Counted from the stretch's first letter, positions 1,360 through 56,532 are shown. The stretch: DNA of 64,000 nt from Eledone cirrhosa (GCA_964016885.1 OZ024765.1:3472001-3536000); one strand, 5' to 3'. Numbers and translations are program-made. Notes: generated by a model not told the origin, from the sequence alone.

Positions 1360-1752
1360 TATATATTGGTAAACGGAATAGAAAATGCTGACAAATTGTT
1401 CACAGTTGAAAAATGGTTTAATTAGGAATAAAAGAGTATTAGTGATTGTATGGGTTAGTATTCAGTTGTGGTTTTAAGTTTTTAAGTTTTTACCGGTTCA
1501 GATCAGATCAGATCAGATCAGAGCAAACAGCACGGACACTCTATCTCAAAATTATTTTTGAAAAGCATTTAGAAATGCGCAACCGGTAAAAACTTAAAAA
1601 CTTAAAACCACAACTGAATACTAACCCATACAATCACTAATACTCTTTTATTCCTAATTAAACCATTTTTCAACTGTGAACAATTTGTCAGCATTTTCTA
1701 TTCCGTTTACCAATATATAATAACTTGTGTGTTACACCTCTATTCTTTTAAC
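1360..1752. repeat. Fold-back element (~140-bp arms) in (TA)n
   Basis: 1360-1498 is the reverse complement of 1581-1718. Confidence 0.9.
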
Positions 1753-2796
1753 TATATATATATATATATATATATATATATATATATATATATATATATA
1801 TATATATATATATATATATATATATTTAGCTCTGTAACTTACATAGAGCACTCTTCATTCCTCTGACTTTTTCAATTTTCAACGGAAACTTGAATATATA
1901 TATATATATATATATATATATATATATATATATATATATATTAACTTGGGGAGGGTCATATTGTTGTAATAATATTGCCAGAATTAATAACAGAACACAC
2001 TCACTGTTTGGTTGGTTTTCGCTTCTGTGTCTTTTATATCAGTTAATTCGTTCGGTCCTCAATATTTACAATTGACTGACCAACGGTCAAAAAATACAGA
2101 TATAATATAGACACAAACACATATATATAGTCTAACAAAGTTCTTTCGTTGCACATCTGCAACATCGTCAGTGGTGCTATTATGTTCCTCCTGTTGTATT
2201 GTATATCTACGCCATCTTTATTTAATCTGTTTATTTATTTATTTATTTATTTTTGTCTTCTTCTCTGCGCATGCGTTTGCGTGTGTGTTCGTGTTTGGGT
2301 GACTGTATTTTGGTTATTGTATTCTATGTTAGTTTACTAGTGTGTTTATATGTGTTTTGGTTATTGTGCTTGTATATATATTTATTTATTTATTTATTTA
2401 TTTATATTTCTCTTAGGTCACTATTGTTTGTTTGGGTTTTGTTTGGGTTTTGTTTGGGTTTTGTTTCGACACACGATTTCATATCAAAACCTCGCAAAAT
2501 AAATACACACACACACACACACACACACACACACACACACACACACACACACATATATACATATATATATATATATATATATATATATATATATATATAT
2601 AGAGAGAGAGAGAGAGAGAGAGAGAGAGAGTGTGTGAGTGTATTATATTGAAAAGATAATAATATAATACACTCTGTATATAATACACACCTCGACACGG
2701 AAGTGAACCTAAACATCGAGTGCTCACCCGGGTGAACCTACAGTGACTCCAAGTTACACTCTCTCTCTCTCTCTCTATATATATATATATATATAT

Positions 2797-3392
2797 ATAT
2801 TGTAAGGTGCATTATTGGTTGTGTAAACTGGTCCAATAAATTTGTGTTACCAATATTAGGTTCTCCACGCTTTTGTATATCTCCAATTCCATTCAAGGGA
2901 GCAGCTAGACGATGTAAAACGGAGTATTTGTATCAAAATAAAGATCCGAAGGCAAGGTATAAATTTCCAAACATTTTAATCACGACACATGTTTCAATAA
3001 GAGATAGATCGATCGTGAAGCCATGATCGATTATCACTGATCTTGTCAGGTAAACTCACCGAGTTTATTCCCTCATATGAGTGAAGATTGATAATTTTCT
3101 CCCTCATATCAAGGATTTGAAGACAATTCATTTTCACCTGACAAGATCAGTGATAATCGATCATGGCTTCACGATCGATCTATCTCTTATAGAAACATGT
3201 GTCGTGATTAAAATGATTGGAAATTTATACCTTGCCTTCGGATCTTTATTTTGATACAAATACTCCGTTTTACATCGTCTAGCTGCTCCCTTGAATGGAA
3301 TTGGAGATATACAAAAGCGTGGAGAACTTAATATTGGTAACAGAAATGTATTGGACCAGTTTACACAACCAATAATACACCTTACAATATAT
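2797..3392. repeat. Fold-back element (~255-bp arms) in (TA)n
   Basis: 2797-3052 is a near-perfect reverse complement of 3137-3392. Confidence 0.92.
3134..3207 (+). ncRNA. Degenerate hammerhead (G8->A) in fold-back element
   Basis: TCAC-CTGACAA-long stem II-GAAA-CATGTG-TC^GTGA. Stem I is extendable with a bulge. Confidence 0.55.
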
Positions 3393-3601
3393 ATATATAT
3401 ATATATATATATATATATATATATATATATGTGTGTGTGTGTGTGTGTGTGTGTGTGTTTATTTTGAGAGGTTTTTATATGAAATGATATATATATATAT
3501 ATATATATATATATATATATATGTGTGTGTGTGTGTGTGTGTGTGTGTGTGTGTGTGTATTTTGCGAGGTTTTTGATATGAAATGATATATATATATATA
3601 T

Positions 3602-3803
3602 ATATTTACGATATTAAATAAATGGAAACTATATTTATAAAACCATATTTATTTCATTATATATAATGAAATAAATATGGTTTTATAAATATAGTTTCCA
3701 TTTATTTAATATCGTAAATATACTCCAAATACTTGTTGAGTGCTTTTATATCAGTTATAAATATTTACTCGTTGTAACCCAACAATTTAAATAAAACTTT
3801 GCA
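3602..3803. repeat. Loopless palindrome plus tail; same family as 16797-17152
   Basis: Arms meet at ~3660 (TTATATATAA). The tail contains TTGAGTGCT. Confidence 0.88.
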
Positions 3804-4081
3804 TATATATATATATATATATATATATATATGTAAATATGATAATAATGGAGCTGCGGCGTTGCAAATGGGTTACATATGAAAAAGTTTGTCCTTCATC
3901 AGTGGCCTTCCAACCGTCGTAGGCATTTCGTCGCTTTACTCGTTCCTATATATATATATATATATATATGGGGGGGGGGGGGGGGGGAAACCTTTTTATA
4001 ACTATCGTTACTTTGTTATATATATAGTTTGTGCCTTCGGTGGGCTATCTTCATGTCACATTATATAACTACGATGTTATA

Positions 4082-4272
4082 GGGCGGTGGATTGGCAGTA
4101 TCGGTGGAGGGTCGGACGCCATGCTTTCCAGCATAGTTACGGCCCTTTACGGTCTGAGTTCAAACCCCGCCGAGGTTGACTTTGCCTTTCATCCTTACGG
4201 GGTCGATAAAATAAAGTACCAGTAATGCACTGGGGTAATTGCTGGCCTTGTGCCAAAAAGTAGCAACAATTA
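4082..4272 (+). mobile_element. tRNA-derived SINE with Meta-type core (family S1)
   Basis: GGGCGGTGGATTGGCAGTATCGG head, B box GAGTTCAAAC and core GCCTTTCATCCTTACGGGGTCGATAAAATAAAGTACCAG. More than 10 copies in the window. Confidence 0.88.
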
Positions 4273-4441
4273 TATATATATGGTGTTTGACTCTGGATTT
4301 AATGTTTGTTTTTAATTTTCGATCCAATCACTGCTCTGTGATTGATTCAAAAAGAAATCGAATTGTAAAGTTTTAAATTGTAAAGTTTTAAATCAGCTGC
4401 ACTATTCACCAGTGTGTTTTAACCTTCATATCATGTCTCCC

Positions 4442-53965: not shown

Positions 53966-54305
53966 TATATATATATATATATATATATATATATATATAT
54001 ATATATATATATATATATATATATATATATACAATATCGGAGAAAGCTTTTTAGCGATAGTCCGGCCAAATTCCAACTCACTCAACAAACATTAGGAAAT
54101 AAGTGATTATATTCCCAATTATGCGTTCGGGGTGCTAACTAAAAGTATTGCGTGGAAAATTTGCTGTATTATTTCATGAGACATATCGAATATATATATA
54201 TATATAAAACAATTTATCGTTATAGGTAATCCAGTTAGAGGTTGTGAATACTCCGTATTGTGGATAGTTTCAGCGTATATTACAAACGCCGTGTATAATC
54301 TTAAT

Positions 54306-54416
54306 CAGTTTCTGACGATTTGGTTAAGCATACATTGTATTTAAAATTGAGTGACACAACTTCAAGTGATTAGCAATTTTAAGACAACTTAACCAATGAA
54401 ACAATTGTTAATACTG
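54306..54416 (+). ncRNA. Type-I hammerhead ribozyme with extended stem II
   Basis: CAGTTT-CTGACGA-T-TTGGTTAAG..CTTAACCAA-T-GAAA-CAATTG-TT^AATACTG. ACAATTGT palindrome. Confidence 0.82.
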
Positions 54417-54703
54417 TAAATAAAACCCTTTTTGTATTGTTGACCATGTTATTCTTCACTCTTTCACTATATATATATATATATATATATATATATATAT
54501 ATATATATGAAGTGACAATAAGAATTGCAGTAGTTATATATTGTGTTATTCGCTTTCTAACTAAATAGTTCTGTTTTATACATAGAGCACTCTTTTTTCC
54601 ACTGCTTTTCCTTCGGAAATATTTGACATATTTATATATATATACATATATCATATGTCCCAAGGCTCTGATACCATCAACACTATAAACACAGAGCTGA
54701 CTA

Positions 54704-54759
54704 ACTGCTTGATGAGGTCATAGCCATTCAATGGCTATCATCGAAATATATATAACAGT
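54704..54759 (+). ncRNA. Hammerhead ribozyme, C3 mutated
   Basis: ACTGC-TTGATGA-GGTCATAGCCATT-C-AATGGCTATCATC-GAAA-TATATA-TA^ACAGT. Confidence 0.7.
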
Positions 54760-55641
54760 AAATAAAGGATTATGAATTCATGCAATTGACTTATGTTTCG
54801 TCACTATATATATATATATATATATATAGTGACGAAACAGAAGTCAATTGTATGAACTCATAATCCTTTATTTACTGTTATATATATTTATTTAGCAGTG
54901 AGATTTAGTTAACGTATGGAGCAGTACTGAGGAACGCCCCCAACCGTGACTAACCCCACTGAAAAGTTTCGTGAAATAGTCTTTTAAGACTATATAGTGC
55001 ATTTGTAGATTTCCCCAAATTGAAGGCTAAGTATTTCGTTCCTGATTTTATTTTGAGTTAAGATAGTATGGTTTTTCCCCAGCTTACACAAAATCTGAGG
55101 ATAAAATGTTTCTTCTTGACTTGTTTTGAATTAAGATGAATTATTTCTCCCATATCTTACGTTAAAAATATTTCATTTTGAGGCTATAGTCACTTATATG
55201 TTTGAATTATTGTCGGCTTTTTGCTTACATTAATTTCTCTATTTTCATATATATATATATATATATATATATATATATATATATATATATATATATAGCA
55301 CAATAGGATTTTGTATACATGCCTTTTTGGAAAATCTCTAAATCTCTGAAAGGGGTAATACATAGCCTTTTGTGTTGCTTGTATAATAAATTACTCTATT
55401 TTGAGCAGTGTTTAACTTCTCAACCTATCTTTACAATTTTTGTATATTGTTTGTGTAAAAAACGATATTTATTACTTATATATATTTATTTCTTATATAT
55501 ATATATATATATATATATATATATATATATATATATATATATACATGTATGTATGTAAAAGGTAAACAGAAATAACAACACAATCGGTGCAGTATATGGA
55601 AGATATATATTAGGTTAATGCTTGATATAGCAGGAAGAGGG

Positions 55642-55676
55642 TCTTAACGTTTCGGACGCTAGTCCTTCATCAGAGG
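55642..55676 (-). ncRNA. Minimal hammerhead ribozyme (GAAACGTT)
   Basis: Minus: CTGATGA-A-GGAC-TAGC-GTCC-GAAACGTT-AAGA. Confidence 0.68.
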
Positions 55677-56323
55677 CAAGAATGAGAATTAAGATAGATT
55701 GAGGGAATGGGCGGGCTGGAATTGGAAAAAATGTCTTTAGATAAAAATAACAGGTCTATATATATATATATATATATATATATATATATATATATATATA
55801 TATATATATACATATATATATATATATATACATAATTTGGTATACTTATGAAACATAATTTTGGTATATTTATATACATTATATATATATATATATATAT
55901 ATATATATATATATATATGAAACATAATTTTGATATGCTTATATACATTTTTTCTTCTCACTTAGATTTTATACCTAATTGTGTATGGTTGACGATATAT
56001 TTAATCGATTTCCACGTGCTATTGGAAATGCTGGGTAAATATTCTATGGCTGTTGATCGCGAATAGATGGCTGTCGTTTATTTATCTATTGTTTCTTCAT
56101 AGGTGTCTTTTAATCTTATAGCCTGGTTTAATTGTTTTTTTGTGTGGTTGATTATGCTGATTGGGAGAGGAGATGGTGTATATATTTTATCAAATGATTC
56201 TATGGACATACTTTATTGTATATATATATATATATATAGAAATTACAGTATAGAAATTGTTGTGAACGTGAAGCCAACAGTATTTCATAATATATATATT
56301 TCATAATATATATATATATATAT

Positions 56324-56532
56324 AGTTATGTAATAAACAACATAAGGCAATTATTTCATTTACCAGTGGTTTCTTGAAAGCAAACAAATTTTGCTTTCAA
56401 TCATCAGAATGCTTTCAAGAAACCACTGGTAAATGAAATAATTGCCTTATGTTGTTTATTACATAACTATTAAGTTCTGTAACCTACATAGAGCACTCTT
56501 TTTTCCTGGACCTTTCCGACGGAATTACTTCA
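56324..56532. repeat. Fold-back element with hammerhead and GAGCACT tail; family also at 1241-1350, 1826-1893, 54510-54627
   Basis: 56324-56382 is the reverse complement of 56410-56468. Confidence 0.88.
56357..56411 (-). ncRNA. Type-I hammerhead ribozyme
   Basis: Minus: CATT-CTGATGA-TTGAAAGCAAA..TTTGCTTTCAA-GAAA-CCACTGG-TA^AATG. Perfect 11-bp stem II. Confidence 0.85.

What the first reader, a model, noticed from the sequence alone, without database searches (positions are those of the whole stretch)
1360..56532. Fold-back inversions whose junctions map to the ribozyme
Seen: at least 15 long inverted repeats where one arm continues into a tail and the other stops at a TA microhomology. Junctions lie at hammerhead parts: centre 3660 is the stem III/cleavage position of the 17048 family; 56410 starts in the 3' strand of stem II; 3137 is at the CTGA box; 1581 is at AACCGGTA; 16797-17155 and 19903-20168 fold just 5' of complete cores. 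Established: PLE insertions often carry an inverted, truncated pLTR. Inference: cDNA snaps back at ribozyme hairpins or at the cleaved end and self-primes second-strand synthesis.
Basis: partly seen in the sequence, partly recalled or inferred. Interest (0 to 1): 0.75.

Follow-up and report, generated by a model that had tools for sequence, protein, structure and literature searches.

The report
Penelope stubs fold at transcript start
These mirror-image DNA stubs are real leftovers of Penelope-like jumping genes, but their fold point is not set by the ribozyme: it sits where the element's RNA likely begins, which suggests both ends of the cut chromosome copy the same short RNA before the two copies are joined head to head.

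Summary
The palindromes are real: 26 in the masked window against 0-1 in shuffles, and fold joints occur in independent Illumina reads. They are head-to-head stubs of Hydra-like Penelope-like elements (PLEs) in (TA)n. Most quoted junctions sit as described, but they are atypical copies. In 448 insertions of 8 families, the longer arm peaks at a family-specific point 35-80 nt upstream of the hammerhead in five families (B, C, D, F, G), inside loop II in A and at its 5' edge in I. Only 5 of 448 end at the cleavage site. The peak carries YCA in 5 of 7 families, a TATA-like box near -30 in 4 of 7, and an excess non-native G just before it, as a copied cap would give. 116 of 123 pairs have exactly one tail; the tail-less arm is the longer in 53 of 80 unequal pairs, which snap-back cannot make. 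Likely mechanism: twin priming on one capped RNA, run-off at its 5' end, end joining. Earlier scan notes on other DNA reached two-site priming; no note on the start-site link was found.

The parts
1238..1352 (+). Family B short stub: 21-bp arms (1238-1258 / 1269-1289) plus tail to about 1352; junction downstream of the hammerhead
1360..1753 (+). Family G pair: tail-less inverted arm 1360-1498, GATCA-repeat insert, tailed arm from about 1512-1515 (predicted +1 at 1515), U3-A8-type hammerhead-like motif about 1555-1593, tail 1720-1753
   Evidence: opposite-strand joints at 1515-1531 in raw reads
2776..3411 (.). Family H palindrome: 276-bp arms including (TA)n, 84-nt spacer, no tail; hammerhead unverified; single copy in the sample
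3601..3805 (+). Family C pair centred at 3661/3662 in stem III, 4 nt upstream of the predicted cleavage site; tail on the right
4395..4635 (+). Family F solo tailed stub with complete hammerhead (CTGACGA at 4450); arm about 157 nt
10195..10308 (.). Family A pair, no tail, arms 54/61, non-native G before the predicted +1
13754..13955 (+). Family A pair, arms 61/50, tail right
16797..17152 (.). Family C pair with complete hammerheads on both strands (CTGATGA 16987 minus, 17056 plus); tail left; arms 119/141
17369..17520 (-). Family A tailed stub with a short inner hairpin at 17491-17519
19462..19668 (-). Family A pair, tail left, 23-nt insert templated from the adjacent arm
19696..19882 (+). Family E pair, arms 78/64 (tail-less arm longer); junction far downstream of this family's hammerhead
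19897..20236 (+). Family I pair, arms 139/154; the plus arm keeps TATAAAT (about 20071), predicted +1 at 20101 and hammerhead 20102-20150; tail right
20355..20634 (-). Family D tailed stub ending at the predicted +1 (about 20602), followed by a 29-bp inverted piece
26352..26545 (+). Family A pair, arms 58/56, tail right
28184..28401 (-). Family E2 pair, arms 77/91, tail left; junction about 60 nt downstream of the hammerhead
33354..33545 (+). Family A (subfamily) pair, tail right
36492..36706 (+). Family J pair, arms 102/105
36773..36925 (+). Family F pair, arms 29/37, tail right; junction downstream of the cleavage site (43)
50088..50171 (-). Family A tail-less arm (61) with a short inverted partner
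53315..53545 (-). Family D tailed solo stub with complete hammerhead (CTGATGA at 53509)
53772..53968 (+). Family A pair, arms 55/56, tail right; junction in loop II of the family hammerhead
56322..56532 (+). Family B pair: tail-less arm (88) holds the CTGATGA core; tailed arm (61) starts in stem II

Best explanation
The palindromes are head-to-head stubs of Penelope-like retroelements in (TA)n, likely made when both ends of the cut target DNA prime reverse transcription on one RNA and run towards its predicted capped 5' end. Steps: (1) The element's endonuclease cuts (TA)n on both strands. Target shown by the flanks; two-strand cutting shown in vitro for another PLE, inferred here. (2) One DNA end primes at the tail end, the other at the inner start site 14-95 nt upstream. 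The one-tail rule is shown; a single RNA is inferred. (3) Both start sites lie near the 5' end of a transcript that begins inside the pLTR, so the cDNAs are short and stop at a family-specific point. The stop is shown; that it is the transcription start is inferred from YCA, TATA-like boxes and the extra G. (4) The two cDNA 3' ends are trimmed and joined by 0-4 nt microhomology or short templated inserts, and each templates the other's second strand. Junction anatomy is shown; the enzymes are untested. Longer or tandem RNAs give long-long pairs. The hammerhead is near the junction only because it lies in the same pLTR, overlapping the start or up to about 80 nt from it.
For: One tail in 116 of 123 pairs (p about 1e-26 against 50%). 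Tail-less arm longer in 53, tailed arm in 27, near-equal in 73. Arms share subfamily alleles: 21/220 (9.5%) discordant at 4 polymorphic columns against 48.8% between insertions (55 family A pairs). Arm classes are coupled: 50 of the first 100 listed long family A arms face another long arm, against at most 23.6% expected (4,147/17,544). Density peaks at A 60, I 71-72, B 129-130, C 175-184, D 171, F 166, G 207. YCA within -1..+2 of the peak in 5 of 7 families (p 0.004); TATAWAW with at most 1 mismatch at -28..-33 in 4 of 7 (p 0.005). Non-native G:A before +1 is 43:32 against 56:138 at control offsets (p 2e-5). In raw reads of three other samples, family F first-mate-plus depth rises at the predicted +1 (13 to 181, 40 to 114, 26 to 145), and 4 of 10 listed joints are at L032:6058-6060, i.e. 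arm length 164-166. PMC11167929: both strands cut and extended, two start sites, hammerhead cleavage dispensable. PMC2377424: the promoter lies in the pLTR.
Against: No RNA data, so the start sites are predictions. Motif definitions and +1 positions were chosen after seeing the peaks, so the two motif p-values and the peak at offset 0 are post hoc; C, D and F have related pLTRs. B and G miss the YCA test; B, C and F miss the TATA test. The G excess rests largely on family A (21:6); without A p is 0.037, and B and C2 show no G. E2 and E are too sparse for a peak. Microhomology is only modestly enriched (2 nt or more: 20/65 against 19% expected). One RNA serving two almost fully overlapping cDNAs needs strand displacement, which is untested. 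Subfamily structure alone could couple arm lengths. In vitro, PAc showed no strand difference in start site (PMC11167929).
Confidence: 0.62

Rival explanations
1. Two separate RNAs, one on each subunit of a dimeric enzyme, are each copied to their 5' end and joined; an asymmetric complex assigns the tail start to one side. The stop is still the transcript start.
For: Near-complete overlap of arms needs no strand displacement. PAc is predicted to be a dimer (PMC11167929). Some pairs differ at subfamily-diagnostic sites: discordance 9.5% at polymorphic against 3.9% at monomorphic columns.
Against: Needs an extra rule to give 116/123 single tails. Arms mostly share alleles, and long arms pair with long arms. 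Polymorphic columns may simply mutate faster; two of the four are a CpG in the reference.
Confidence: 0.17
2. One reading: one cDNA snaps back at hammerhead hairpins or at the cleaved end and self-primes its second strand.
For: Family A and I junctions lie in or at the edge of the hammerhead (98/99 and 44/77). A minor cluster lies in loop II of I (52-59). Single window copies lie at the cleavage site (3660) and stem II (56410). Self-priming was proposed from junction palindromes in PMC3846280. 73 near-symmetric pairs are compatible.
Against: Cannot make the 53 pairs whose tail-less arm is longer. Five families peak upstream of the ribozyme. 5/448 ends lie at the cleavage site. The native loop II is not the usual spacer.
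Confidence: 0.07
3. The stops are reverse-transcriptase pause sites or RNA processing sites on longer RNAs, not transcription starts; twin priming still makes the pairs.
For: No RNA 5' end was seen. About 24% of family A arms that reach -60 run on past -90. B, C and F lack a TATA box.
Against: Perfect TATAAAT at -30/-31 in I and D, YCA at 5 of 7 peaks, and the extra G are not predicted by pausing. By eye, the stops lie in a loop or AT-rich sequence, not at the 3' foot of a helix.
Confidence: 0.09
4. An antisense transcript self-primes and is the template (the proposal of PMC3846280).
For: Gives head-to-head geometry with palindromic junctions.
Against: Stops coincide with sense-strand promoter motifs and a G on the sense side. 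It does not explain the one-tail rule, or internal initiation on sense RNA in vitro (PMC11167929).
Confidence: 0.03
5. Fold-back read or assembly artefacts, or two independent insertions into one (TA)n tract.
For: Palindromes are a known artefact class in long reads (own knowledge). No single read or contig spanned a whole window palindrome.
Against: Opposite-strand joints at the same family positions in Illumina reads of another study. Arms differ by about 4%. At least 9,812 exact family A palindromes with varied spacers. One-sided tails and shared alleles exclude independent hits.
Confidence: 0.02

Closest known systems
EN+ Penelope-like element insertions with inverted 5'-truncated pLTR and one-sided tail (PMC8557442, PMC3846280, PMC2377424)
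   Same: Head-to-head inverted truncated copy, tail on one side, type I hammerhead in the pLTR, AT-rich or (TA)n target, Inr- and TATA-like motifs in the pLTR.
   Different: Tails here are 14-95 nt (30-40 bp typical in print). Most insertions are pLTR-only stubs with a sharp family-specific end. The passages read do not map junctions to a start site or state a one-tail rule.
Hydra clade of C-terminal EN+ PLEs (PMC8557442, section 11)
   Same: RW-type and DKT motifs, CxCX5C linker, no CCHH, CxxC and CxH around the conserved E and N, canonical hammerheads, (TA)n target.
   Different: The motif reads RWT, not RWK, in the one RT seen. No tree was built. Only families A and F were tied to coding sequence.
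PAc Poseidon element in vitro (PMC11167929)
   Same: Two reverse-transcription start sites that define the tail; both strands cut and extended; hammerhead cleavage not needed.
   Different: Different clade. That paper saw no strand preference for start site and did not address inversion or the RNA 5' end.
L1 twin priming (as described in PMC2912911)
   Same: Two target ends prime on one RNA and the cDNAs join by short complementarity; a reverse-transcribed cap G marks full-length copies.
   Different: In L1 the second primer anneals internally by homology and (own knowledge) the two cDNAs barely overlap. Here the second start is a fixed site, the arms overlap almost completely, and both run to the same end.
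Non-LTR retrozymes (bioRxiv 10.64898/2026.07.22.740005)
   Same: Non-coding, hammerhead-bearing PLE end pieces.
   Different: Retrozymes are tandem direct repeats; these are single inverted pairs, and family A stubs lack the 5' half of the ribozyme.

Membership tests
EN+ Penelope-like elements | RT followed by C-terminal GIY-YIG endonuclease on the same element | tested here: met
   Family F copy L032:2566-5089 has RT motifs by inspection (MGA, YRDD) and a GIY-YIG stretch in a second frame; Pfam GIY-YIG E=0.012, below cut-off, and no RVT_1 hit. Family A arm L031:8150-8884 is 33% identical to the F endonuclease, no Pfam hit. Other families were not linked to an ORF.
EN+ Penelope-like elements | pLTR with type I hammerhead motif | tested here: met
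   Core, GAAA and stems read by eye in A, B, C, D, E, E2, F, G, I; A (some copies) and G carry the U3-A8 core of PMC4209133. MFE folds recover stem I or II only in part; Rfam showed no hammerhead among the 150 of 547 rows listed. Cleavage not tested.
EN+ Penelope-like elements | Inverted 5'-truncated copy and one-sided tail | tested here: met
   116 of 123 pairs
Hydra clade | DKT, CxCX5C linker, no CCHH, CxxC/CxH, (TA)n target | tested here: met
   against PMC8557442 section 11 (families A and F only)
Hydra clade | RWK motif | tested here: inconclusive
   RWT at the matching place in one decayed copy
Hydra clade | Monophyly with described Hydra elements | not tested
   no reference proteins fetched, no tree
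L1-type twin priming | Two oppositely oriented cDNAs from the two target ends | tested here: met
   53 pairs with the tail-less arm longer; L031
L1-type twin priming | Both cDNAs from one RNA molecule | tested here: inconclusive
   one-tail rule, shared alleles and coupled lengths favour it; two RNAs not excluded
L1-type twin priming | Non-overlapping segments with a variable, homology-chosen internal primer site | tested here: not met
   arms overlap and the inner start is fixed per family; it works like twin priming but is not the L1 form
MITE / foldback DNA transposon | Symmetric terminal inverted repeats with fixed ends on both sides | tested here: not met
   one-sided tail on either side, variable centres, retroelement ORFs in long copies
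Non-LTR retrozyme | Tandem direct repeats each with a complete hammerhead | tested here: not met
   copies examined are inverted pairs or solos
Pol II start site in the pLTR | Capped RNA 5' ends at the predicted +1 | not testable with these tools
   no RNA holder listed; only DNA signatures were tested

The most novel reading that the evidence does not exclude
PLE integration is a programmed double-priming reaction: one capped RNA is primed at two fixed sites by the two ends of the break, and because those sites lie just inside the RNA's 5' end the commonest product is a pair of 'strong-stop' cDNAs fused head to head. That would explain the inverted pLTR, the one-sided tail and the abundance of stubs in one scheme, make each palindrome centre a fossil map of the element's promoter, and imply that in family A the start site lies inside the hammerhead so that the 5' copy of the ribozyme is never transcribed whole.
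Probability: 0.5. Interest if true: 0.72.

Novelty: new variant of a known kind. Interest (0 to 1): 0.55.

Why it matters
How PLEs form their inverted pLTR and one-sided tail is named as an open problem in PMC8557442, and PMC11167929 leaves the later steps unvalidated. The counts here give rules that the existing in vitro system can test directly: one tail per pair, tail-less arm often the longer, a stop at the RNA 5' end with an extra G. They argue against self-priming as the general route and leave the hammerhead as a bystander in junction formation. With at least 9,812 exact palindromes from one subfamily, the process is also a major source of short DNA hairpins in this genome. The structures themselves are a known kind.

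Tried and rejected
Rfam scan: the 150 of 547 rows shown were microsatellite-driven miRNA matches, no hammerhead; hammerheads were found by motif scan instead. The unmasked self-BLAST was swamped by (TA)n. DNA searches of the genome with the I and F tails returned nothing, probably because common words are skipped; exact patterns worked (2,080 and 5,088 matches). Expression: no RNA holder listed. A sliding 'cliff' estimator overshot the stops by several nt and found the Inr test weak (no hit for A or G, wrong YCA for D); it was replaced by a density peak, a change made after seeing the data. The first G test (49/108 against 59/285) had an unfair control and was redone. Cleavage-site stubs were checked one by one: only 3660 and B solo L120 are plausible; the C solos at 56 are (TA)n noise. 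Family H could not be tested (no second copy). Rows dropped before counts: pairs with more than 100 unexplained nt were counted as two solos, pairs with an arm under 10 nt were dropped, pairs with inserts over 12 nt were left out of the tail-versus-length count, and the loci recognised as duplicates or window copies were removed. The B and C search loci are biased to arms of at least about 40 and 121 nt. Pfam gave no significant hit for the PLE proteins. Literature searches that ran found no paper linking PLE inversion junctions to the start site; subscription journals are largely missing and no supplements were read (Supplementary files S1/S2 of PMC8557442 may list these families).

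
Full report
Setting. The window is G000:C26:3472001-3536000 of a 3.0-Gb animal genome. It is octopus-like by inference from size and repeats; earlier scan notes say the same. About 40% of the window is microsatellite. Distances below are nt upstream of the tail-less (inner) end of each family, measured on natural reference copies.

Observation. After masking, 26 local inverted repeats with exact stems of 18 bp or more remain, against 0-1 in each of 30 shuffles. About 15 are head-to-head pairs of PLE end families named here A, B, C, E, E2, F, G, I and J; D occurs as solos. 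They are not assembly artefacts: raw Illumina reads of another study show opposite-strand joints at window 1515-1531 for family G and at arm lengths 164-166 for family F, although no single record spanned a whole palindrome. One subfamily of A alone gives 9,812 exact palindromes in the genome. Of the six named junctions, 3660, 56410 and 1581 are placed correctly, 16888-17152 roughly, 19897-20173 is 67-82 nt from the ribozyme, and 3137 is unverified.

What they are. Long copies connect the stubs to coding sequence. L032 holds a decayed RT plus GIY-YIG element of family F with a 470-nt inverted arm; L031 holds a family A arm with an endonuclease. Pfam support is weak, but DKT, CxCX5C, absence of CCHH and the CxxC/CxH pair match the Hydra clade as described in PMC8557442. 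The Hydra lead came from an earlier scan note. The families carry type I hammerhead motifs, read by eye, with predicted cleavage at 19 (A), 28 (I), 39 (B), 43 (F), 47 (C), 57 (D), 131 (G) and 150 (E2).

Sample. I used 1.444 Mb of contiguous blocks (several were placed around earlier hits, but not chosen by junction), tail-selected loci for D, I and F, and search loci for B and C (biased to arms of at least about 40 and 121 nt). Arms were mapped by anchored alignment.

Junctions do not follow the ribozyme. Longer-arm ends inside the hammerhead: A 98/99, I 44/77, B 13/40, C 14/91, D 4/49, F 3/52, G 0/8, E2 1/32. Within 3 nt of the cleavage site: 5 of 448 (very short arms are missed in the blocks). 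Ends are far from uniform. Density peaks lie at A 60, I 71-72, B 129-130, C 175-184, D 171, F 166 and G 207, against ribozyme 5' edges at 108, 72, 93, 104, 115, 105 and 165. In family A, 17,544 arms reach -60 and 4,147 of them continue to the 5' strand of stem II (exact patterns, so lower bounds).

The hot spot looks like the RNA 5' end. YCA lies within -1..+2 of the peak in A, I, C, D and F (not B, G). A TATA-like box lies at -28..-33 in A, I, D and G, perfect in I and D (not B, C, F). The combined p-values are 0.004 and 0.005 but are post hoc. A less circular prediction is a G copied from the cap, as noted for full-length L1 and SVA in PMC2912911. Among arms that begin at +1 with a non-native base before it, G:A is 43:32 against 56:138 at control offsets (p 2e-5); A alone 21:6; without A 22:26 (p 0.037); B and C2 show none. 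Pooled arm starts peak at +1 (108, against 12-57 at other offsets), partly by construction. In E and E2, long arms tend to end near motifs that I recall as NRF1- and YY1-like, plus an ETS-like motif in E2; the names are from memory and the numbers are small. PMC2377424 places the Penelope promoter in the pLTR; PMC3846280 notes TATA and TCACT in a rotifer pLTR. No RNA was available, so the start site is inferred.

Two cDNAs, probably one RNA. 116 of 123 block pairs have exactly one tail, 5 none, 2 both. The tail-less arm is at least 8 nt longer in 53 pairs, the tailed arm in 27, and 73 are within 7 nt. A cDNA primed at the tail cannot snap back and write sequence it has not yet copied, and one primed at the inner site cannot write a tail; the 53 pairs therefore need two independently primed cDNAs. 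Arms share subfamily alleles (9.5% discordant against 48.8% between insertions), and long arms face long arms (50 of the first 100 listed on C1, at most 23.6% expected). Both fit one RNA; subfamily structure or two RNAs from one source could mimic this. Of 145 pairs, 65 join with no insert, 43 with 1-5 nt and 37 with more. Microhomology of 2 nt or more occurs in 20/65 against 19% expected, and 16 of 29 inserts of 8-60 nt match the adjacent arms, against 5.9 expected. That resembles polymerase-theta end joining or RT template jumping (own knowledge; untested).

Mechanism. The enzyme cuts (TA)n; the two ends prime at the tail end and at the inner site; both cDNAs run towards the capped 5' end that lies 60-210 nt away in the pLTR; they are trimmed and joined. 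PMC11167929 shows both-strand extension, two start sites near the start of the ORF and a dispensable ribozyme in another clade, but saw no strand preference, which the one-tail rule must be reconciled with.

Novelty. The structure is known. The link between junction and start site, the G signature and the one-tail rule were not found in the paper searches that ran. Earlier scan notes on other DNA reached two-site priming; a word search for the start-site link found none.

Papers seen: PMC11167929, abstract, main text and start of methods (parts 1-2 of 4); PMC8557442, passages and section 11; PMC3846280, passages and Discussion; PMC2377424, PMC4209133, PMC2912911 and bioRxiv 10.64898/2026.07.22.740005, passages only. 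No supplements were read.

Noticed in passing
window 551-1176 and 24368-24993; 24365-25536: A non-LTR retrotransposon remnant (RVT_1, E=1e-16 for 25033-25536) with a 95% identical 626-bp second piece near the window start.
   Followed up: partly
window 4075-4283, 20694-21082, 25764-25989, 34073-34737, 35743-35881, 39178-39362, 47203-47738: An abundant, roughly 200-bp SINE-like repeat; two copies face each other at 34091-34709 and mimic a fold-back.
   Followed up: no
window 2776-3411: Tail-less 276-bp palindrome with no second copy in the blocks and loci searched; a possible degenerate hammerhead around 3165-3206.
   Followed up: partly
window 8801-8942, 14718-14835, 54744-54889: Further palindromes not assigned to a mapped family; two are centred on (TA)n, the reverse geometry.
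   Followed up: no
L032:2170-6320: Near full-length family F element, RT and endonuclease in two frames, with a tail-less inverted arm of about 470 nt.
   Followed up: partly
L087 around 1480-1500: Junction insert of about 19 nt copied from genomic DNA flanking the insertion.
   Followed up: no
L096 and L100 flanks: Family C stubs flanked on both sides by inverted copies of another repeat ending in (GAT)n.
   Followed up: no
families E and E2, e.g. window 1945-2290 minus strand: GCGCATGCGC and AAGATGGCG motifs (and CCGGAT in E2; recalled as NRF1-, YY1- and ETS-like) upstream of the hammerhead, suggesting a TATA-less housekeeping-type promoter.
   Followed up: partly
window 13095-13700 / 45458-46062; 28550-28840 / 55923-56213; 40024-40274 / 54214-54463; 48895-49077 / 49511-49693: Young dispersed or direct repeats at 97-99% identity, not examined.
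   Followed up: no
window 30583-31233 and 62077-63909: 45-bp and roughly 27-bp minisatellites with long open frames on one strand.
   Followed up: no
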